Source of the DNA: Thermoanaerobaculia bacterium | Lineage (GTDB): Bacteria > Acidobacteriota > Thermoanaerobaculia > Multivoradales > JAIOJS01 | Length of the DNA stretch: 30,136 nucleotides | Reading direction: 5' to 3' | Assembly: GCA_033722255.1 (NCBI GenBank) | Contig: JAWVZJ010000001.1 | Span: forward strand, 1 to 30,136 | Shown: positions 11,724 to 20,134 of the stretch, piece after piece | How the letters are laid out: the number at the start of each line of letters is the position of its first letter | Position numbering within the stretch: the stretch's first letter is position 1 | Translations under genes and position numbers: made by a program | Notes under the pieces: model-generated | What the model was told of the DNA's origin: nothing | Databases searched by the model: none | Seen by the model: the letters and a program-made list of their open reading frames with translations, nothing else

Positions 11724-12365
11724 TCAGGGGTCGGTGTCCGACGGGTCGGGTTCCTCGATCCAGGACCGGGCGGCCAAAGCCATGATCTCACGTCCCTCCA
11801 CCAGCCGGGTTCGGTCTCCCTCCCGGAGGAACACGAGCTCCACGTCCCCTTCGACGCCACGCTCCCGAAGAAGCGTCTCCAGCGCCGGTCTCAGGCTCTC
11901 CCGCTCGTAGATCCAGTGTTCCGACGGGAGGCGCCGGGTCCTGGAGCCACGTCCCCCTCGGCCGAAGCGATCCGGAACCGTGATCTGGGCGACCCGCATC
12001 CGATCCGGAGGGCCCAGGAGGATGAGGGCCCCACCCCGGTCCGTCAGCGCCCCCCGGGTCTCCTCGTCTCCGTAGAGGCGGTCCGCCGCCACCACCCGCT
12101 TCGACATGAAGGACTCGATCTCTCCTCGACGGGCCCAGAAGTCCTCGACGAAGGCCTCGAGATCCCCCAGATCCCGGATCCGCCGGGCCTCCCTCCGCTC
12201 CTCCGGCAACAGGAGCCAACGAACCGGCCCCTGGCTCCACCGCTCGCTGACCGTCGAGGCGGGACCGGTGGTCCGGGGACGGCAACCGACCCCCAGGAGG
12301 AGGAGCAGGATCGCTCCCGTCGCCAGCGTTCCCGGTCGGTGCGTCGGCTTCGTGGCTCCGCCCCC
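11724..12365 (-). CDS. Divergent GWxTD-domain-like lipoprotein (start codon unresolved)
   Basis: The open frame extends upstream of the ORF-track TTG (12209) through WSQGPVRWLL to the lipobox ILLLLLGVG|C (Cys 12282-12284). Core motifs FVEDFWARR, RVVAAD, GALTDRG and LILLGPPD. There is no ATG/GTG/TTG in frame before the lipobox. Confidence 0.62.
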   Translation of the reverse strand, partial: GGGATKPTHRPGTLATGAILLLLLGVGCRPRTTGPASTVSERWSQGPVRWLLLPEERREARRIRDLGDLEAFVEDFWARRGEIESFMSKRVVAADRLYGDEETRGALTDRGGALILLGPPDRMRVAQITVPDRFGRGGRGSRTRRLPSEHWIYERESLRPALETLLRERGVEGDVELVFLREGDRTRLVEGREIMALAARSWIEEPDPSDTDP

Positions 12366-12650
12366 TCAATGAACCGCCTGGTCGGCGTTCGGCTCCGGGG
12401 CCTCCTCGATGGGACCGTGGGTCTCCTCGTAGCGGGAGAGGTTCGACGAGAGGGCCCGGACGATCCGCTTCATGTGGCCGGGGCTGGTGATGATCCGAGC
12501 CGTGACCGCCCCCTGGGGAGGAACCAGGTTGATGAAGTCCAGGATGAACTCCTCCCGGGTGTGGGTGATCCGGAGGAGATTGGAGTATCGGCCCTTCAGC
12601 TCCTCGTCGGTGATCTTGATGTTCAGTTCCTGCTGCGGGGCGTCCGCCAT
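12366..12650 (-). CDS. DUF3467 domain-containing protein
   Basis: QELNIKITDEELKGRYSNLLRITHTREEFILDFINLVPPQGAVTARIITSPGHMKRIVRALSSNLSRYEETHGPI matches the family pattern. ATG 12650 with GAGAGG SD. Confidence 0.82.
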   Translation of the reverse strand: MADAPQQELNIKITDEELKGRYSNLLRITHTREEFILDFINLVPPQGAVTARIITSPGHMKRIVRALSSNLSRYEETHGPIEEAPEPNADQAVH

Positions 12651-12693
12651 GGATCGGTCCTCTCTCGGGATTCGCGCGACGTGGGAGAGCTCG

Positions 12694-12702
12694 ATTCTAA
12701 CA
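12694..12702 (-). promoter_or_regulatory. Extended -10 promoter for DUF3467, GWxTD and M49 genes
   Basis: Minus strand TGT-TAGAAT, 43 nt upstream of ATG 12650. Confidence 0.45.
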
Positions 12703-12853
12703 GCCGTCGCGCCGCTCCGGGCGTTCATGAGGATGAAAGCCGGGAGCTGACCAGTCGATGACCCTGGGCCGGCCCTTCGGGTCCGAGGTCCGGGACCCGG
12801 AGGGGACGGCGCGGGCTATGAGATCTTTGGTCGTGGGGCCGGGAGGGATCCGG

Positions 12854-14128
12854 TCAGCCGGTCTCGTCCCACTCGACCCCGGGACCGAACTCCCACCGAT
12901 GTCGCGGCTCGTACACCCCGGTGGAGGACCGGGAGGCACTGACGGTAAAGGTGAAGACGCCCCGGCGGTAGTCGTAAGGAGCTCCGTCCCGGGCGTGGAC
13001 GGCCAGATCCACTGCATACTCTCCCGGGGCGAGGCGCAGATCGGGACAGTGGATCTGGACCCGGGTGGAGCCCGAGAGGCGCCCCGGGCGGTATCCCTCC
13101 AGCTCGGTGTTGGTACCCCAGACCTCCACCCCCCGGGGAGTCCGGATGGCGATCCCGAACACGAAGTCCTCCAGCTCCTCCTCGGCCTCCACGTCCAGGG
13201 CGAAGACCGCGGAGCTCCCGGTAGACAGGGCATAACCCTCCGCCCCGTCGACGAGAAGCCGAACCTCCCGGAGCCGGGCCCGTCCGGAACCCCAACGATC
13301 CGGCCTCTCTTCGGCTTCGGCTTCGGCTTCCGTCTCGGCCTCCTCCTTCTCCTCCCGGTGCCGCCGGCCCTCGGCCTGGGCCACGGCGTCCCGGTAGGCG
13401 TCCACGACCCGGCGAGGCTCTCCGATCATCCGGCTGAAGCCGTCCTCCATCCAGAGGATCCTGTCGCAGAGATCCTCCACGAGGGGAAGGGTGTGGCTGA
13501 CGAAGAGGAGGGTCTTCCCCCGGGCCAGCATCGCTTCGATCCGGTGTACGCAGCGATGGGCGAAGGCCTCGTCCCCGACGGCCAGCACCTCGTCCACCAG
13601 GAGCACGTCGGGATCGGTATGGACGGCCACGGCAAAGCCCAGACGAACGTACATGCCGGAGGAGTAGTTCTTCACCGGCTCGTCGATGAAGTCCTCGAGA
13701 CCCGAAAAGGCCACGATCTCGTCGAAGCGGTCCGCCACCTCGGACCGGGAGAGGCCGAGGACCGCGCCGTTGATGTACACGTTCTCCCGACCCGAGATCT
13801 CCGGATGGAAACCGGCCCCGAGCTCGATCAGGGCCGAGACCCTGCCGTCCACTGCGATCCGACCCTCCGTGGGCTCCAGGATCCCGGCGATCAGCTTCAG
13901 GAGCGTCGACTTCCCGGAGCCGTTGCTCCCGATCAGGCCGAAGGCCTCCCCCGGAGCGACCGAGAATGACACCTCCCGGACGGCGGGAATCACCTCTTGG
14001 GGCTCCAGGTCCCGGACCAGGCTCCGCTCCAGCAGGGCGCTCTTGAGGGTCCGGAACCGGAAGCCCGAGGCCATTCTCCGATAGAGCTTGGACACTCCCT
14101 CCACCGTGACCACGGCGTCTCCGCTCAT
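12854..14128 (-). CDS. wzt: Polysaccharide ABC exporter ATP-binding protein with C-terminal carbohydrate-binding (Wzt_C) domain
   Basis: ATG 14128 in an ATGA overlap with wzm. Walker A GSNGSGKS, ALIELGAGFHPEISGRENV, YSSGM, LLVDEVLAVGD. C-terminal RWGSGRARL...FVFGIAIRTPRGVEVWGTNT. Confidence 0.92.
   Translation of the reverse strand: MSGDAVVTVEGVSKLYRRMASGFRFRTLKSALLERSLVRDLEPQEVIPAVREVSFSVAPGEAFGLIGSNGSGKSTLLKLIAGILEPTEGRIAVDGRVSALIELGAGFHPEISGRENVYINGAVLGLSRSEVADRFDEIVAFSGLEDFIDEPVKNYSSGMYVRLGFAVAVHTDPDVLLVDEVLAVGDEAFAHRCVHRIEAMLARGKTLLFVSHTLPLVEDLCDRILWMEDGFSRMIGEPRRVVDAYRDAVAQAEGRRHREEKEEAETEAEAEAEERPDRWGSGRARLREVRLLVDGAEGYALSTGSSAVFALDVEAEEELEDFVFGIAIRTPRGVEVWGTNTELEGYRPGRLSGSTRVQIHCPDLRLAPGEYAVDLAVHARDGAPYDYRRGVFTFTVSASRSSTGVYEPRHRWEFGPGVEWDETG
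13309..13330. repeat. In-frame hexamer tandem repeat (CTTCGG x3.7) encoding the EAEAEAE linker in Wzt
   Basis: CTTCGG CTTCGG CTTCGG CTTC, read directly. Confidence 0.75.
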
Positions 14129-14919
14129 GCCGCCTCCACCAGGGTGTTCCGCAATCGAGCGAACACCCAGCAGCCGAATCCCCAGGCGAGGAGGGAGGTG
14201 CCCAGGGCTCGAAGCCAGAGGGAGACCGCAGGCCACACCCCGGCGAAGAGGAGGTCCTGATAGATCTGGATGTAGGGAGTGGCCGGGTTGGCGGCCACGA
14301 TCGCCCAAGCCCACGGCACCTGTCGGATGCTGGAGAGGGGATAGAGGATCGGCGTCAGGAAAAAGCCCAGAGTGAGGAGGTTCTGGAGAAGATCCTGGAC
14401 GTCCTTGAAATGGACGTTCAGGGCGGCCAGGGCGAGGGCGAGACCCGCGACGAAGGGAAGCTGCACCAACATCGCCAGGGGAAGCCCGAAAACGGACCAG
14501 CCACCGACCGGATAGTCGAAGAGCCGAGCTCCCACCAGGGCCACCCCCGCGATCGGGAGGGCCAGGACAAAGTGGACGAGCTGGGCCAGGACCGTCACCA
14601 CGGGAAGGACCTCGGCCGGGAAGACCGCCTTCCGGATCAACCCGGAATTCTCCAGCAGGCTCCCGGTGGCGTCCAGGAGGGAGCCCGAGAGCCAGATCCA
14701 GGGGAACAGGCCGGTGACCAGGAAGACGGAGTAGGGCTCGGCTCCGCCCCAGCGGGCCTGGAAGACGATGTCGAAGACCAGGGTGTAGACCGCCAGGAGG
14801 AGGAGGGGGTTGACCAGGGACCAGAAGAAGCCGAGGAAGGAGCCCCGGTACCGGGCTTTCAGCTCCCGGCCCGTCAGGATGAGGAGGAGGCCCCGGAAGC
14901 GGAGGAGACGAGCTAGCAT
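14125..14919 (-). CDS. wzm: Polysaccharide ABC exporter permease (ABC-2 type)
   Basis: RELKARYRGSFLGFFWSLVNPLLLLAVYTLVF, LIRKAVFPAEVLP, LNVHFKDVQDLL and FFLTPILYP, with multiple TM helices. ATG 14919 chosen; GTG 14964 is possible. Confidence 0.92.
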   Translation of the reverse strand: MLARLLRFRGLLLILTGRELKARYRGSFLGFFWSLVNPLLLLAVYTLVFDIVFQARWGGAEPYSVFLVTGLFPWIWLSGSLLDATGSLLENSGLIRKAVFPAEVLPVVTVLAQLVHFVLALPIAGVALVGARLFDYPVGGWSVFGLPLAMLVQLPFVAGLALALAALNVHFKDVQDLLQNLLTLGFFLTPILYPLSSIRQVPWAWAIVAANPATPYIQIYQDLLFAGVWPAVSLWLRALGTSLLAWGFGCWVFARLRNTLVEAA

Positions 14920-15012
14920 CAGATTGTCGCGGAGAGCCCTACGCCCCGATCCGAGGACGGGCACTCCGTCCGGTCACCGGCACCCGGGTGCTCGAGCTCG
15001 AAGAGGGGCCCC

Positions 15013-16209
15013 TCAGTTCTCGCCCTCGAGGCGACGCTGCCGCTCCTCGATTTCCCGCATCCGTTCCTGGAACGCCCTCTTGATCCTCTCGACGTGCCTC
15101 TCGTAGTTGAGGGGCTCTCCGTCCTTGATGATGTAGACCCGGGGGTACTTCTGGACGTCTCCCTTCTCGTCGAACTGAAGCGTTCCCGTGGCTCCGGGGA
15201 GCGATCGGATGCTCCGCATCCCTCCCCAGAACTCGTTGGGGGTGGCTCCGCCCTCGACCAGAGCCTCGACCAGGACCCGCATCGCGTCGTATCCGTGGGC
15301 CGAATACAGGTCCGGTGTCTCGCCGTACTTCTCCCGATAGGTGTCCACGAACGCCTTGACGTCGCCGCTGGCCTGGGAAAGGTCGAAGATCGTCTGGGTG
15401 AAGATGACCCCGTCCGCCTGGTCTCCCACCTCCCGGACGGCCCTGGAGGTGGCGAAGGCGGAGGTGGTGAGGATCTTGCCCTCGTACCCGTCGCCCCGGA
15501 GCTCCCGGATCATGTGCACGAGGTCCTTCCAGTATGCCGCCAGGTAGACGGCGTCGGGGGCCAGGGTCGTGACGCGATCGACGAGGCCGCTGACGTCGGT
15601 ATTGGACTGGAACTCCAGGGTCTCCAGAACTTCGCCACCGTGCCTCTCGAACTCGGTCTCGAAGACCTCCTGGATGCCCAGTCCGTACGGGGACTCGTTG
15701 GCCAAAATCACCGCGCTCTCGAGCTTCAGGGTGTTCGCGGCGAAGGACCCCATCTTGGTTCCCTCGACGAAGTCCGAGGGGAAGACCCGGAAGAAGTTCC
15801 GGGACACGCCGGAGAGCTCCGGATTCGAAGCCGAAGGCGAGACCAGGACCCGATCCTCCTCGTCGGCAACCTCCACCATCTCCAGGGCCTCGGCGCTGGT
15901 GACGCCACCGATCGCAGCCAGGGCGCCCTCGTCGTAGAGATCTTCCAGGAGCTCGGCCGCCTTTTCGGGATCGGTCTCGGAGTCGACGATCTCGAGCTCG
16001 ATCTCCCGCTCGAGGCGAGGATCCTCCCGGGCCTGCTCATAGGCGATCTCGATGCCCCGCTTGATCGCGGTGGCGTAGGCCTGCACGGGGCCCGTCAGGG
16101 GCAATACGGCCCCGAACGTGACCGGCTTCGGCGGTCCACAGGCCCCCAGGAAAAGGCCCAGGCCCAGGCCCACGCACAAGACGGCAGTCCAGATCGATCG
16201 ACGTTTCAT
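15013..16209 (-). CDS. Type I periplasmic-binding-fold lipoprotein (LivK/LivJ-like substrate-binding protein)
   Basis: Lipobox LFLGA|C. FGAVLPLTG, AAIGGVTS, LVSPSAS, FFRVFPSD and AHGYDAM. Charged helical C-terminal tail. Confidence 0.85.
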   Translation of the reverse strand: MKRRSIWTAVLCVGLGLGLFLGACGPPKPVTFGAVLPLTGPVQAYATAIKRGIEIAYEQAREDPRLEREIELEIVDSETDPEKAAELLEDLYDEGALAAIGGVTSAEALEMVEVADEEDRVLVSPSASNPELSGVSRNFFRVFPSDFVEGTKMGSFAANTLKLESAVILANESPYGLGIQEVFETEFERHGGEVLETLEFQSNTDVSGLVDRVTTLAPDAVYLAAYWKDLVHMIRELRGDGYEGKILTTSAFATSRAVREVGDQADGVIFTQTIFDLSQASGDVKAFVDTYREKYGETPDLYSAHGYDAMRVLVEALVEGGATPNEFWGGMRSIRSLPGATGTLQFDEKGDVQKYPRVYIIKDGEPLNYERHVERIKRAFQERMREIEERQRRLEGEN

Positions 16210-16278: not shown

Positions 16279-16491
16279 GAACATCCGACCCTCCGGGAAT
16301 CGGGGCTCCGAGCCCCTCGCCCGGGCCCGTGTCGGCGGCCCCGGCGGCAGATCCGAGCCACTGTGGACGAGCCGAGCGGTGACGAAGCCACCGAAGCCGG
16401 CCGGGTGGGTCTCGTCAAACACGTCCCCCAGTGTACCGAATCCTCCCCGCCCGCACCGGGCTCGGCGTCCGGAGCTCGGTCGGAGGGACTC

Positions 16492-18651
16492 TCACGGGAG
16501 CTGGAAATACCGGGGAGAAGGCCCGAGGGTCACGTCCCGACCTTCCGGGATCGAGAGCTCCTCACCGTCCCGTCCCCAGGTCCGTTGCGGCGATTCCGGC
16601 AGGGTCGCTCGACCGGACCCCTCCCGGGACCAGCCCACGAAGATCTGTCTCCCCTCGTCCCGAAAGCGGTAGAGATAGAGTCCCTCCGGGGTGTGGTCGG
16701 GCCCCACGAAGGTGGCCCCCTCGAGCCGGGCCAGCGTGGCGAGGGCCCGATAGGCGGGGCGCACCCGGAGGCCGTCCTCACCTGGGGCGAGGAGACCGTA
16801 GCCTCGGGCCACGAGCTGCCACCAATAGACCCGTTCCACGTGGCCGGTTCCCAGGGCCAGGAGGTAGTAGCGGACCAGGTAGTCCGCCGCCGTCTCCTCG
16901 TCCACCGCGACGTGCCGGCCCGCCGGGGCGTGGGGACCTTCCCACAAGGGCCAGTTCACCTCGGTGATCCAGCTCCGTTCGGCCGCGCACCGGCCGGAGA
17001 TCGCCAATGCCTTGGCCAGCAGGACCTTGTCCACCGTGTCGAATCCGGCCTGGGTGTTCTCCGGCGCTCCCCGACGATCGACGTAGAGGAGGCTGGCCAG
17101 GGCGTCGAACCGGAGGTGGCTCCCGGGCCAGTTCAACACCGCGGCGGTGTAGTGAGGCTCGAAGTCGATCACCGCCGGACCCAGGATCTGCACGCCCCGG
17201 TGCCGCCGCAGAACCTCGCTGGCGGTCTCGGCCAAGCGCTGGTACTCCTCCAGGTTCCAGATCCCCCACTTGCTCCGGTTGATCGCCTGTCCCACCTGGA
17301 AGTGCCGACCATAGGGAGCGAACCGCTCGGCCAGCTCCTCGACGGCGCCCCTCCAACGTCGGAGATCCCGGACCAGCTCCCTCCTCTGGGGGAGAGAGTA
17401 GGCCAGATCGAAGCCCCGTCCGTGGAGCTCCCGGGCCAGGGACTCCTCGGCGCCGTGCTCCTCCGCCCAGGGATGGAGCCGGAGCAGCACCCGGCGGATC
17501 CCGAGCTCCTCCAAGGCCCGGATCAGGCTCTCCGGGTCCTCCGGCCGGGGTCGCACGCAGACTCCGAGACCGTCGAAGACCACGGACTCGGCGTGGAGCT
17601 CGGACTGGAGCCGCCGGTAGGCGCTCCAGAGCCCCGGGGCGGCGCCCAGGATGCCCCGGAGCGCCTTCAAGTGGATCCGGACGTCCCCCAGCCGGACCAG
17701 GAGCTTGTCCAGACGGCCGGCGTGTTGGTGCGGCTGATCCGAAAGCGGGTCCCAGACCGCCCGGTCTCTCCGGGACGCCCCGGAGGGTGGCCGGGGAAGA
17801 TGAGGATAGGCCTTCCGGGGCACCAGGAGGTCCCGGACCTTGCCCAGTCTCCCACGGATCCGACGCTTCCATCGGTGTCGGCCGTGAAACGAGCGGTGGA
17901 AGAGCCGGTACAGGATCCGGGCCCGGCGGGGCGGTTCCCCCCGGAAGTAGGCCGACAGGAGGAGGTTCTGATGCTCCGGGCGCTCCAGGGGCATCCGGCA
18001 GAGATCCCTCAACCTCCGGGAGAGACCGACCCGAGGAAGACGCCGGGCCCGGTTCAGATCCACGAGGAAGGGGTCCGGCGGCCGCTTCTCGAGATCCAAC
18101 AGCACATTCCCCGAGGAGTAGTCCCGGAACCAGAAGCCCCCCTCGTGGAGGGCCAGGGCCAGATCCGCCAGGACGCTCAGGAGCTCCACGGGATCCAGGT
18201 CCGGAAAGCTCTCGTCCTCCGTCCCCGCATTCAGGGCCCGGACGATGGACCGGGCCTCGACCAGCCCCTCCAGGTACCGGGAGACGTAGAACGCCGGACC
18301 GTCGATCCGATCGGTGTCGATCCAGACGAGAGGGTCCGGGGTGGGCAGCCCCTCCTCCTCCAGGGCCAGGGCCACTCGCCAGCTCCGCTCCGCCTTGCTG
18401 CCCCGGAGCCGCCGGTCGACTCGACGACGCAGCGTCTCGTGGCGGAACTGCTTGACCACCACACTCTCCACACCCCGGCCGGGAACCTCCACCTCCGTGA
18501 CCCAGAGATAGTTCCTTCCCCAGTGGAGGGTCTCCCGTGCTCGACTCGGATCCGCCAGCAGCGGGAGAGCTTCGGGAACCATCTGCCTCCACGGCCCTTC
18601 CCGGACCTCCCCCCGGAAACCGGGACTCCGGAACTCCAGGGAGTCGGTCAC
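16492..18651 (-). CDS. Fusion of an LPS/Kdo-kinase-like (WaaP/InaA family) domain and a clan GH-A-like TIM-barrel domain
   Basis: N-half: VVVKQF, SKAERSW...LPTPDPL, FRDYSSGNVLL, LVDLNRA. C-half: FQVGQAINR, ILGPAV, FDALASLLY, WITEVNW, VERVYWWQL, RPAYRAL. GTG start 1 nt after the rng stop. No signal peptide. Confidence 0.8.
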   Translation of the reverse strand: MTDSLEFRSPGFRGEVREGPWRQMVPEALPLLADPSRARETLHWGRNYLWVTEVEVPGRGVESVVVKQFRHETLRRRVDRRLRGSKAERSWRVALALEEEGLPTPDPLVWIDTDRIDGPAFYVSRYLEGLVEARSIVRALNAGTEDESFPDLDPVELLSVLADLALALHEGGFWFRDYSSGNVLLDLEKRPPDPFLVDLNRARRLPRVGLSRRLRDLCRMPLERPEHQNLLLSAYFRGEPPRRARILYRLFHRSFHGRHRWKRRIRGRLGKVRDLLVPRKAYPHLPRPPSGASRRDRAVWDPLSDQPHQHAGRLDKLLVRLGDVRIHLKALRGILGAAPGLWSAYRRLQSELHAESVVFDGLGVCVRPRPEDPESLIRALEELGIRRVLLRLHPWAEEHGAEESLARELHGRGFDLAYSLPQRRELVRDLRRWRGAVEELAERFAPYGRHFQVGQAINRSKWGIWNLEEYQRLAETASEVLRRHRGVQILGPAVIDFEPHYTAAVLNWPGSHLRFDALASLLYVDRRGAPENTQAGFDTVDKVLLAKALAISGRCAAERSWITEVNWPLWEGPHAPAGRHVAVDEETAADYLVRYYLLALGTGHVERVYWWQLVARGYGLLAPGEDGLRVRPAYRALATLARLEGATFVGPDHTPEGLYLYRFRDEGRQIFVGWSREGSGRATLPESPQRTWGRDGEELSIPEGRDVTLGPSPRYFQLP

Positions 18652-18652
18652 C

Positions 18653-20134
18653 TCAACGGACCTCGAGGACCTCGAAGCGCTCCCGGTGCAGCTCCGGGTC
18701 GCTCCGAACCACGATCGACAGACCCAGGGTCCGCTCCAACTCCTCCACGACCGCCTTCTCCTCCCCCCGGAGGGCGTTCGCCAGATCCGGGTGGGCCCGG
18801 AGCATCAGCTCCCGGGCTCCCCGGGGCGCTCCGTGGTCCAGGACCTCCTCCCGGAGCTCCATGGCAATCGTGGTCAGCGCCTTCACCCGACCGTCGCCCT
18901 GGCAGTACGGACAGGGAGAGGTGAGAAGCCGCTGCAGACTCGGCCGACTCCTCTTCCGCGTCATCTCCACCAGGCCGAACTCCGAAATCGACAGGACCCT
19001 CGAGCGGGCCCGATCCTTCCGGACCTCCTCCTCCAGGGCGGCGAAGACCTCCTCGCGGCTCTCCGCCTCCTCCATGTCGATCAGATCGAGGACGACGATA
19101 CCTCCGAGGTTCCGGAGGCGAATCTGTCGGACGGCTTCCCGGACCGCCTCCAGGTTCGTGCGCAGAATCGTGCGCTCCAGGTCTTCGCTCCCCACGAACC
19201 GGCCGGTGTTCACGTCGATGGCCACCAGGGCCTCCGTCGGCTGGATGACGAGATACCCGCCAGAGCGCAACCAGACCTTGGACCGGAGGGCGGCCTCGAT
19301 CTCCTCCTCCACGTCGGCCACCTCGAAGAGGGGACGTCGTCCCTCGTGGCGCCGGACCTTCCGGGCCAGGGAGGGGTCGACCTCCTGCAGGAACTCCGAG
19401 ACCCGCCGGTGGATCTCTTCACCCTCCACTCGGAGAGCCTCGAACCCGGGACCGAAGCGGTCTCGGACCACCCGCAAGGCCACGTCCAGATCCTCGTGGA
19501 CCAGGGCTGGGGCGCCCGCTTCCCGGATCCGATCCCGGATCCGATCCCAGCGACTCCTCAGCGACCCGGCGTCCCTCTCGAAGGACTCGGGGCGCTCCCC
19601 CTCTCCGGCCGTCCTCACGATCCACCCCCCCTCCGGGAGCCCGGCCACGATCTCCCGGAGGCGCTCCCGCTCCTCCGGATCCTCGATCCGGCGGGAGACC
19701 CCGAGGTGGGCGCCGTCGGGAACGAAGACGAGGTACCGGCCGGGCAGCGTGATCCGGGGGGTCACCCGGGCACCTTTGGAGGGCACCGGATCCTTTACCA
19801 CCTGCACCACGATCTCCTCTCCGGGCTTCAGTAGATCGTCGATGGCCTTCTCTGCTTCCCCCGGACCCTCCTGCGTCTCGTCCTCCGCCCCGGATCCCGA
19901 GCTCCGATCCCGGAGATCGTCCACGTGGAGAAAGGCGTCCCTCTCCAGGCCGATGTCCACGAAGGCGGCCTCCATTCCGGGCAGGACCCGGTTGACCCGG
20001 CCCTTGTAGAGGTTCCCCACCACTCCCCGGTCCCGGCGCCGCTCCAGGAACAGCTCCACCAGCCGGCCCTCCTCCAGGAGGGCCACCCGGGTCCGATGGG
20101 GATCTTGCTGGATCAGGAGCTGCGGCGCCGACAC
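18653..20134 (-). CDS. rng: Rne/Rng family ribonuclease (RNase G-like)
   Basis: GNLYKGRVNRVLPGMEAAFVDIG, TLPGRYLVF, LRSGGYLVIQPTEALVAIDVNTG, RQIRLRNLGGIVVLDLIDM, FGLVEMTRKR, CPYCQGDG. Confidence 0.95.
   Translation of the reverse strand: MSAPQLLIQQDPHRTRVALLEEGRLVELFLERRRDRGVVGNLYKGRVNRVLPGMEAAFVDIGLERDAFLHVDDLRDRSSGSGAEDETQEGPGEAEKAIDDLLKPGEEIVVQVVKDPVPSKGARVTPRITLPGRYLVFVPDGAHLGVSRRIEDPEERERLREIVAGLPEGGWIVRTAGEGERPESFERDAGSLRSRWDRIRDRIREAGAPALVHEDLDVALRVVRDRFGPGFEALRVEGEEIHRRVSEFLQEVDPSLARKVRRHEGRRPLFEVADVEEEIEAALRSKVWLRSGGYLVIQPTEALVAIDVNTGRFVGSEDLERTILRTNLEAVREAVRQIRLRNLGGIVVLDLIDMEEAESREEVFAALEEEVRKDRARSRVLSISEFGLVEMTRKRSRPSLQRLLTSPCPYCQGDGRVKALTTIAMELREEVLDHGAPRGARELMLRAHPDLANALRGEEKAVVEELERTLGLSIVVRSDPELHRERFEVLEVR
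19522..19548. repeat. In-frame 12-bp tandem duplication in rng (DRIR-DRIR)
   Basis: CCCGGATCCGAT x2 plus CCC, read directly. Confidence 0.7.

What the first reader, a model, noticed from the sequence alone, without database searches (positions are those of the whole stretch)
16960..17298. GH-like domain keeps the nucleophile motif but lacks the acid/base glutamate
Seen: the strand-7-like motif WITE (16960-16971) is intact. The strand-4-like motif reads QVGQAIN (17278-17298) where clan GH-A enzymes have E-x-x-N-E-P. Established: retaining GH-A catalysis needs both Glu residues, and myrosinases lack the acid/base Glu and act on activated substrates. Inference: a transglycosylase/transferase using an activated or phosphorylated donor (possibly made by the fused kinase), an enzyme borrowing a displaced acid (IDFEP is a candidate), or a binding-only module.
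Basis: partly seen in the sequence, partly recalled or inferred. Interest (0 to 1): 0.6.

Follow-up and report, generated by a model that had tools for sequence, protein, structure and literature searches.

The report
Glycosidase-fold family lacking its catalytic acid
A whole uncharacterised family of bacterial proteins has the shape of a sugar-cutting enzyme but has lost one of the two residues such enzymes need, and it often sits among lipopolysaccharide-core genes beside or fused to a sugar kinase, so it may be a new kind of sugar-transfer enzyme or a sugar-binding pseudo-enzyme.

Summary
Observation confirmed, and it holds family-wide. The C-terminal domain of the 719-aa ORF (16492-18651, minus strand) is a GH39-like barrel (pLDDT 96.6; nearest PslG and 5jvk, Z 31-33.5). 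Profile alignments put Ala456, not Arg459, on the acid/base Glu; one hit is the engineered E160A mutant 2bfg. In 444 intact homologues this position is A/T/V/S/C, never E/D. Glu564 is invariant, as are R391, N458, R459, W462, D496 and K542. The fused kinase is WaaP/KdkA-like, so it more likely phosphorylates LPS core than makes the donor. Many homologues lie in LPS-core clusters (waaF, hldE, waaL); here the gene follows rng. Some persist without the cognate kinase. A sister clade (17 sequences) has also lost the nucleophile yet keeps the NRxKW/DFE/RxxxPE/K set. Best guess (0.37): a retaining transferase whose donor and/or acceptor is a phosphate, so no protein acid is needed. Rivals: binding-only module (0.30), Asp496 as relocated acid/base (0.20), kinase-made donor (0.05). 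No activity or active-site geometry was measured. First readers of this scan noted the fusion and missing NEP in five other genomes; I found no paper on the family.

The parts
16492..18651 (-). 719-aa ORF: WaaP/Kdo-type kinase fused to a GH39-like domain; no signal peptide or transmembrane helix seen; starts 1 nt after the rng stop
17830..18651 (-). Kinase domain with intact catalytic residues K67, D177, N182, D198; nearest solved relative WaaP (6dfl)
16495..17760 (-). GH39-like (beta/alpha)8 barrel plus C-terminal beta domain, residues 298-719
17728..17754 (-). N-terminal W300-D-x-x-S-D-Q306-P-H hairpin, conserved in the main family and absent in the nucleophile-less clade
17479..17481 (-). 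Arg391 at the end of strand 2 (444/444); Asp in the nucleophile-less clade
17263..17298 (-). Strand-4 motif Q-V-G-Q-A-I-N-R-S-K-W-G (family form [QE]-x-G-[QHNS]-[AT]-x-N-R-x-K-W-G)
17284..17286 (-). Ala456, the position of the acid/base Glu of clan GH-A
17158..17169 (-). I-D496-F-E498 at the end of strand 5; D496 444/444, E498 439/444; also kept in the nucleophile-less clade
17059..17088 (-). Strand-6 motif L-Y523-V-D-R-R-G-A-P-E531; Y523 aligns with the H-x-Y tyrosine of GH39
16948..16971 (-). Strand-7 motif W-I-T-E564-V-N-W-P; E564 is the nucleophile position (444/444 in the main family)
18653..20134 (-). rng (RNase G/E), last gene of the mreBCD-pbp2-rodA run directly upstream; this linkage is common in Thermoanaerobaculia only

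Best explanation
The domain is an active, cytoplasmic, LPS-core-associated retaining glycosyltransferase (transglycosylase) built on a GH39-like barrel. Glu564 attacks an equatorially linked (beta-D or alpha-L) sugar whose leaving group is a phosphate; candidates are an undecaprenyl-phosphate sugar, ADP-beta-heptose or CMP-beta-Kdo. The covalent glycosyl-enzyme is then discharged onto the LPS core, most simply onto or beside a phosphate placed there by a WaaP/KdkA-like kinase. A phosphate leaving group or acceptor needs no protein acid and is repelled by a carboxylate, so Glu was replaced by Ala, and Arg459/Lys461/Arg526 would hold the phosphate. Shown: fold, residue pattern, conservation, gene context, kinase type. 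Inferred: everything about donor, acceptor and catalysis.
For: E564, Y523 and R391 are 444, 443 and 444 of 444 at about 30% mean identity. A sister clade shows the fold tolerates their loss, so they are under functional rather than structural selection (inference). The acid/base position is always small and neutral, next to invariant R459/K461. Homologues sit in LPS-core clusters: beside GT9 in 55 of 79 loci of the Campylobacterota-like clade, with hldE in 32 and waaL in 15; GT9-WaaL-GT4-kinase-GH-methyltransferase in Aminicenantes; lpxL-GT9-GT4-GT90-GH-kinase-gmhA-hldE-hldD-gmhB-waaA. The domain persists with all motifs where the cognate kinase is not found (4 of 23 genomes) or is truncated and lacks its catalytic Asp (L208, L209), so it has a role of its own. 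Weak hints on chemistry: in 3 genomes of one genus a related kinase without the GH-like domain is next to an ArnT-like GT-C; in 2 loci the fusion is followed by an ArnC/DPM1-like GT2. Precedents: removing the acid/base carboxylate admits phosphate in GH3 and GH84 (PMC8950772); double displacement from a nucleotide sugar in WbbB (PMC9587256); sugar-phosphate substituents on Kdo exist (PMC8042644).
Against: No activity, ligand or coordinates were obtained. A clade of 17 homologues has His or Cys at position 564 yet keeps the basic and acidic constellation and LPS context, so the lineage can work without this chemistry. An E-to-A GH39 is the mutant used to stop turnover of ordinary glycosides. 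WbbB still needs a general base (Glu158) for a hydroxyl acceptor. No single donor-making gene travels with the family. In this organism the gene sits behind rng, not in an LPS cluster.
Confidence: 0.37

Rival explanations
1. Binding-only pseudo-glycosidase: the barrel recognises lipid A-core or a lipid-linked glycan and presents it to the kinase or to other core enzymes; Glu564 only hydrogen-bonds a sugar (as in Klotho or chitinase-like lectins; own knowledge).
For: Repeated coupling to the kinase: kinase-GH and GH-kinase fusions, tandem and convergent genes. A kinase-fused clade has lost both catalytic glutamates, Y523 and W611 but keeps Q422, N458, R459, W462, D496, F497, E498, R526, P530, E531, K542 in 17 of 17.
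Against: Intact domains survive without a cognate kinase. E564 shows no substitution in 444 main-family sequences. Some genomes carry both the main form and the nucleophile-less form (G654, G711), which suggests different jobs.
Confidence: 0.3
2. Relocated acid/base: Asp496 at the end of strand 5 reaches into the space vacated by Ala456 and acts as acid/base with Glu564 as nucleophile, giving a hydrolase or transglycosylase on an LPS glycan.
For: D496 is 444/444 and follows directly on strand 5, the neighbour of strand 4. The residue at 456 is always small. E498 tolerates D or A in 5 cases, so D496 is the better candidate.
Against: D496 and E498 are equally invariant in the clade that has lost the nucleophile, which fits a binding or salt-bridge role with R459/K461/R526. 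I know no clan GH-A precedent (own knowledge). Distances could not be measured.
Confidence: 0.2
3. The conserved chemistry is something else (for example inverting transfer or phosphoryl transfer using D496/E498 with R459/K461), and position 564 only tunes specificity.
For: Only the NRxKW/DFE/RxxxPE/K set is common to both clades; position 564 is E, H, C or Y.
Against: The main family keeps the GH39 nucleophile environment (E564, Y523, W/H611) almost without exception.
Confidence: 0.08
4. The kinase makes a free sugar-1-phosphate that the GH-like domain uses as donor (maltokinase/GlgE logic; own knowledge).
For: Fusion in two orders; some kinases of this fold are anomeric sugar kinases (own knowledge).
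Against: The kinase is closest to WaaP and KdkA; free-sugar kinases rank far lower (glucosamine kinase rank 21, TM 0.32). The GH-like domain persists without the cognate kinase.
Confidence: 0.05

Closest known systems
GH39 PslG (5bx9/4zn2) and Bacteroides cellulosilyticus GH39 (5jvk)
   Same: Barrel plus beta domain; TM 0.69 and Z 31.0 (PslG), Z 33.5 (5jvk); strand-7 T-E motif.
   Different: 16-21% identity; no acid/base Glu in this family; extra N-terminal hairpin and helices; no signal peptide; kinase partner.
GH39 beta-xylosidase XynB, E160A mutant (2bfg)
   Same: Ala at the acid/base position with the nucleophile and H-x-Y tyrosine aligned.
   Different: 2bfg is an engineered mutant; here the change is natural and family-wide, with added invariant Arg/Lys.
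Myrosinase (GH1, 1e4m)
   Same: Clan GH-A enzyme without the acid/base Glu that still uses the nucleophile (own knowledge); fold match Z 21.3.
   Different: Gln plus ascorbate and an activated S-glycoside there; Ala/Thr and an LPS context here; different family.
GH3 beta-glycoside phosphorylases (Nag3, BglP) and GH84 Asp-to-Asn phosphorylase
   Same: Replacing the acid/base carboxylate lets phosphate into the site (PMC8950772).
   Different: Other folds; GH3 uses a His/Asp dyad; no His at the acid/base position here.
Retaining beta-Kdo transferase WbbB GT99
   Same: LPS enzyme using double displacement from a beta-linked nucleotide sugar (PMC9587256).
   Different: Described there as a modified glycosyltransferase architecture with an Asp nucleophile and a required Glu base; not a GH-A barrel.
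WaaP / KdkA LPS-core kinases
   Same: Nearest relatives of the N-terminal domain.
   Different: Scores are far below the equivalog cut-offs; a distinct D-[LV]-N-R subfamily; substrate untested.

Membership tests
Clan GH-A / GH39 | (beta/alpha)8 barrel with GH39-type beta domain | tested here: met
   pLDDT 96.6; top Foldseek and VIA hits are PslG and 5jvk
Clan GH-A / GH39 | Nucleophile Glu at the end of strand 7 | tested here: met
   E564 aligns with XynB H-I-T-E-Y-N; 444/444
Clan GH-A / GH39 | Acid/base Glu in N-E-P at the end of strand 4 | tested here: not met
   Ala456; 0 of 444 have E/D
Clan GH-A / GH39 | Match to the Pfam or NCBIfam GH39/GH5 models | tested here: inconclusive
   No hit for the query or three stand-alone homologues; the family HMM reaches GH39 structures only at E 0.0015
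Clan GH-A / GH39 | Retaining hydrolysis of an equatorial glycoside | not testable with these tools
   needs an assay
Clan GH-A with relocated acid/base | A carboxylate about 5 A from the nucleophile | not testable with these tools
   model coordinates are not returned; D496 is the conserved candidate
Myrosinase-like GH1 | GH1 sequence family with Gln at the acid/base position | tested here: not met
   Ala/Thr at the position; GH39 structures outrank GH1 by about 10 Z units
Kdo/WaaP kinase family (PF06293) | Kinase fold with Lys, catalytic Asp-x4-Asn and metal-binding Asp | tested here: met
   K67, D177, N182, D198 conserved; WaaP is the top hit; the query itself scores 18.8 against a cut-off of 21.3, homologues carry PF06293
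WaaP or KdkA proper | Equivalog score above cut-off | tested here: not met
   No hit for the query; a stand-alone homologue scores 40 against 142 (KdkA) and 33 against 170 (RfaP)

The most novel reading that the evidence does not exclude
A new class of retaining glycosyltransferase on a clan GH-A barrel that passes a sugar from a phosphate-linked donor, via Glu564, to the (phosphorylated) LPS core without a protein acid/base, with a derived clade that became a kinase-attached pseudo-enzyme.
Probability: 0.33. Interest if true: 0.85.

Novelty: new variant of a known kind. Interest (0 to 1): 0.62.

Why it matters
Clan GH-A catalysis is defined by two glutamates, and natural exceptions are few. 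This is a broad family (219 representatives at 50% identity with E under 1e-30) in at least three phyla. It is annotated as 'hypothetical' or 'glycosyl hydrolase', which is probably wrong. If it transfers sugars it would be a natural counterpart of acid/base-mutant glycoligases and an unrecognised LPS-core enzyme; if it only binds, it is a bacterial GH-A pseudo-enzyme. The natural series (intact, kinase-decayed, nucleophile-less) makes the question directly testable.

Tried and rejected
Pfam, NCBIfam and single-sequence PDB searches did not recognise the domain. A link to the downstream wzm/wzt (WbdD-like chain cap) was set aside as a family feature: wzm/wzt lie in only 9 loci, of 61 with at least 4 kb downstream. 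The rng/mre linkage (60 loci, of 76 with enough upstream DNA) was conserved only in Thermoanaerobaculia. Complex prediction of the stand-alone Aminicenantes kinase and GH-like protein gave no verdict and is not used as evidence. No relatives were found in viral contigs or plasmids. Paper searches found nothing on this family; the library is incomplete. Active-site distances could not be measured because coordinates are not returned. My regex architecture labels in the tree had misses, so I claim only two fusion orders, not a number of fusion events. The Campylobacterota assignment of loci L107-L186 rests on Atlas clusters, not on named records; the phylum of G301 is unnamed.

Full report
Observation. 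The two motifs lie in one ORF, 16492-18651 on the minus strand (719 aa). 16960-16971 reads WITE and 17278-17298 reads QVGQAIN. Pfam sees only a weak Kdo/WaaP kinase in residues 46-217. An AlphaFold model of residues 298-719 (140 sequences, pLDDT 96.6) is an eight-stranded barrel with a C-terminal beta domain. Its best structural matches are the GH39 proteins PslG (TM 0.69) and 5jvk (Z 33.5), ahead of GH30, GH79, GH42, GH51 and GH1.

Register. The family HMM aligns G-H-A-I-N-R with V-W-N-A-P-N of PDB 2bfg, the E160A acid/base mutant of GH39 XynB (PMC7242879). HHalign against a canonical relative with W-E-V-W-N-E-P-N gives the same register. Ala456 therefore replaces the acid/base Glu; Arg459 lies three residues on. 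In 444 intact homologues position 456 is A413, T27, V2, S1, C1. E564, R391, N458, R459, W462, D496 and K542 are 444/444; K461, Y523, D525 and N566 are 443/444; E498 is 439/444. By motif spacing R391 sits two residues later on strand 2 than the usual GH-A arginine (position 389 is mostly Leu); that comparison with XynB R52/H54 is from my own knowledge.

Distribution and partners. The domain is fused behind the kinase in Thermoanaerobaculia, stands alone in Aminicenantes and, by Atlas clusters, Campylobacterota, and is common in a third, unnamed phylum. The kinase keeps K67, D177, N182 and D198, and its nearest solved relative is WaaP. Kinase and GH-like domain occur as kinase-GH, GH-kinase, tandem and convergent pairs, and once in a GT4-kinase-GH fusion. 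In a 301-genome sample of the window's phylum, 23 genomes have the domain: 19 with the kinase fused or adjacent, and 4 (98-99% complete; three of one genus) with no match to the kinase profile. Two further proteins have lost the kinase N-lobe and catalytic Asp but keep every GH-like motif. There is no signal peptide or transmembrane helix, so a cytoplasmic location is inferred.

Gene context. In this organism the gene starts 1 nt after the rng stop; that linkage is seen in 60 loci of close relatives, while wzm/wzt follow in only 9. The genome does encode WaaA and GT9 proteins elsewhere. In the other lineages the context is often LPS core: GT9, WaaL, GT4, kinase and a methyltransferase in Aminicenantes; frequently directly upstream of waaF, with hldE, an hldD-like epimerase, gmhA, gmhB and waaL nearby, in 79 metagenome loci; lpxK, GT9, waaL and lptF/G in others. 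Several loci show no LPS genes.

A nucleophile-less sister clade. A divergent group, mostly GH-kinase fusions with an intact kinase, has His (15) or Cys (2) at 564, Phe at 523, Asp at 391, Gly at 611 and no N-terminal hairpin. It keeps Q422, N458, R459, K/R461, W462, D496, F497, E498, R526, P530, E531, K542 and W567 in 17 of 17. One member sits beside hldE, gmhA, hldD and gmhB-like genes (read from their sequences) and a WaaP homologue. Two genomes hold both forms. The simplest reading, an inference, is two sub-sites: a donor site (R391, Y523, E564, N566, W611) that the sister clade dismantled, and a charged acceptor or phosphate site (NRxKW, DFE, RxxxPE, K542) that both keep.

Mechanism. I favour an active retaining transferase (0.37). 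The donor-site residues are dispensable for the fold yet invariant in the main family, and the domain outlives its kinase. A phosphate leaving group or acceptor needs no protein acid, and removing the acid/base carboxylate is known to admit phosphate in GH3 and GH84 (PMC8950772). Candidate equatorial donors in LPS synthesis are undecaprenyl-phosphate sugars, ADP-beta-heptose and CMP-beta-Kdo (own knowledge). Sugar-phosphate substituents on Kdo exist (PMC8042644). Weak hints: a related kinase without this domain is paired with an ArnT-like enzyme in three genomes of one genus, and an ArnC-like GT2 follows the fusion in two loci. Against it: nothing was assayed, WbbB still needs a base for a hydroxyl acceptor, and no donor gene travels with the family. 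A binding-only module (0.30) is supported by the sister clade. Asp496 as relocated acid/base (0.20) cannot be excluded without coordinates, though its retention in the nucleophile-less clade argues for another role. A kinase-made donor (0.05) fits poorly with a WaaP-type kinase.

Verdict. Real, family-wide and apparently undescribed. By fold it is GH39-like, but it fails the defining acid/base test and should not be filed as a GH39 hydrolase. New variant of a known kind; interest 0.62. First-stage readers of this scan noted the fusion and missing NEP in other genomes; those notes are not independent evidence.

Noticed in passing
L204:7587-9833, L205:7434-9728, L206:7045-9318, L207:7329-9575, L238-L261: Sister clade of GH-kinase fusions with His or Cys (once Tyr, L266) at the nucleophile position and a remodelled polar centre (D391, D/N520, N521); could be a pseudo-enzyme or use different chemistry.
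   Followed up: partly
L208:7382-9094, L209:6516-8222: Fusions whose kinase has lost its N-lobe and catalytic Asp while the GH-like domain is intact; a Rce1-like CAAX protease gene lies directly upstream.
   Followed up: partly
L187, L188, L189: A related Kdo/WaaP-type kinase without the GH-like domain lies directly behind an ArnT-like (PMT_2) transferase in three genomes of one genus.
   Followed up: partly
window 12854-14964 (-): wzm and wzt with a Wzt C-terminal carbohydrate-binding domain, far from any visible O-antigen synthesis genes in the window; near this gene in only 9 related loci.
   Followed up: partly
window 15013-16209 (-): Peripla_BP_6 (LivK-like) lipoprotein without cognate permease genes in the window, between the fusion gene and wzm.
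   Followed up: no
window 16285-16303 (-): Terminator-like hairpin downstream of the fusion gene, suggesting the mre-rng-fusion transcript ends before the binding-protein gene.
   Followed up: no
window 11724-12728 (-): DUF3467 protein followed by a weak GWxTD-domain protein, kept with wzm/wzt in a few relatives.
   Followed up: no
L088:7084-7776 and equivalents in L081, L083, L084: Class I methyltransferase directly after the GH-like gene in Aminicenantes, recalling kinase-methyltransferase pairs such as WbdD or WarAB (resemblance from memory, untested).
   Followed up: no
P0372 (L100:1126-4467), P0415, L219:5456-7780: Further fusions: GT4-kinase-GH; a RibF-like domain before kinase-GH; and a neighbouring Rce1-like plus O-antigen-ligase fusion protein.
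   Followed up: no
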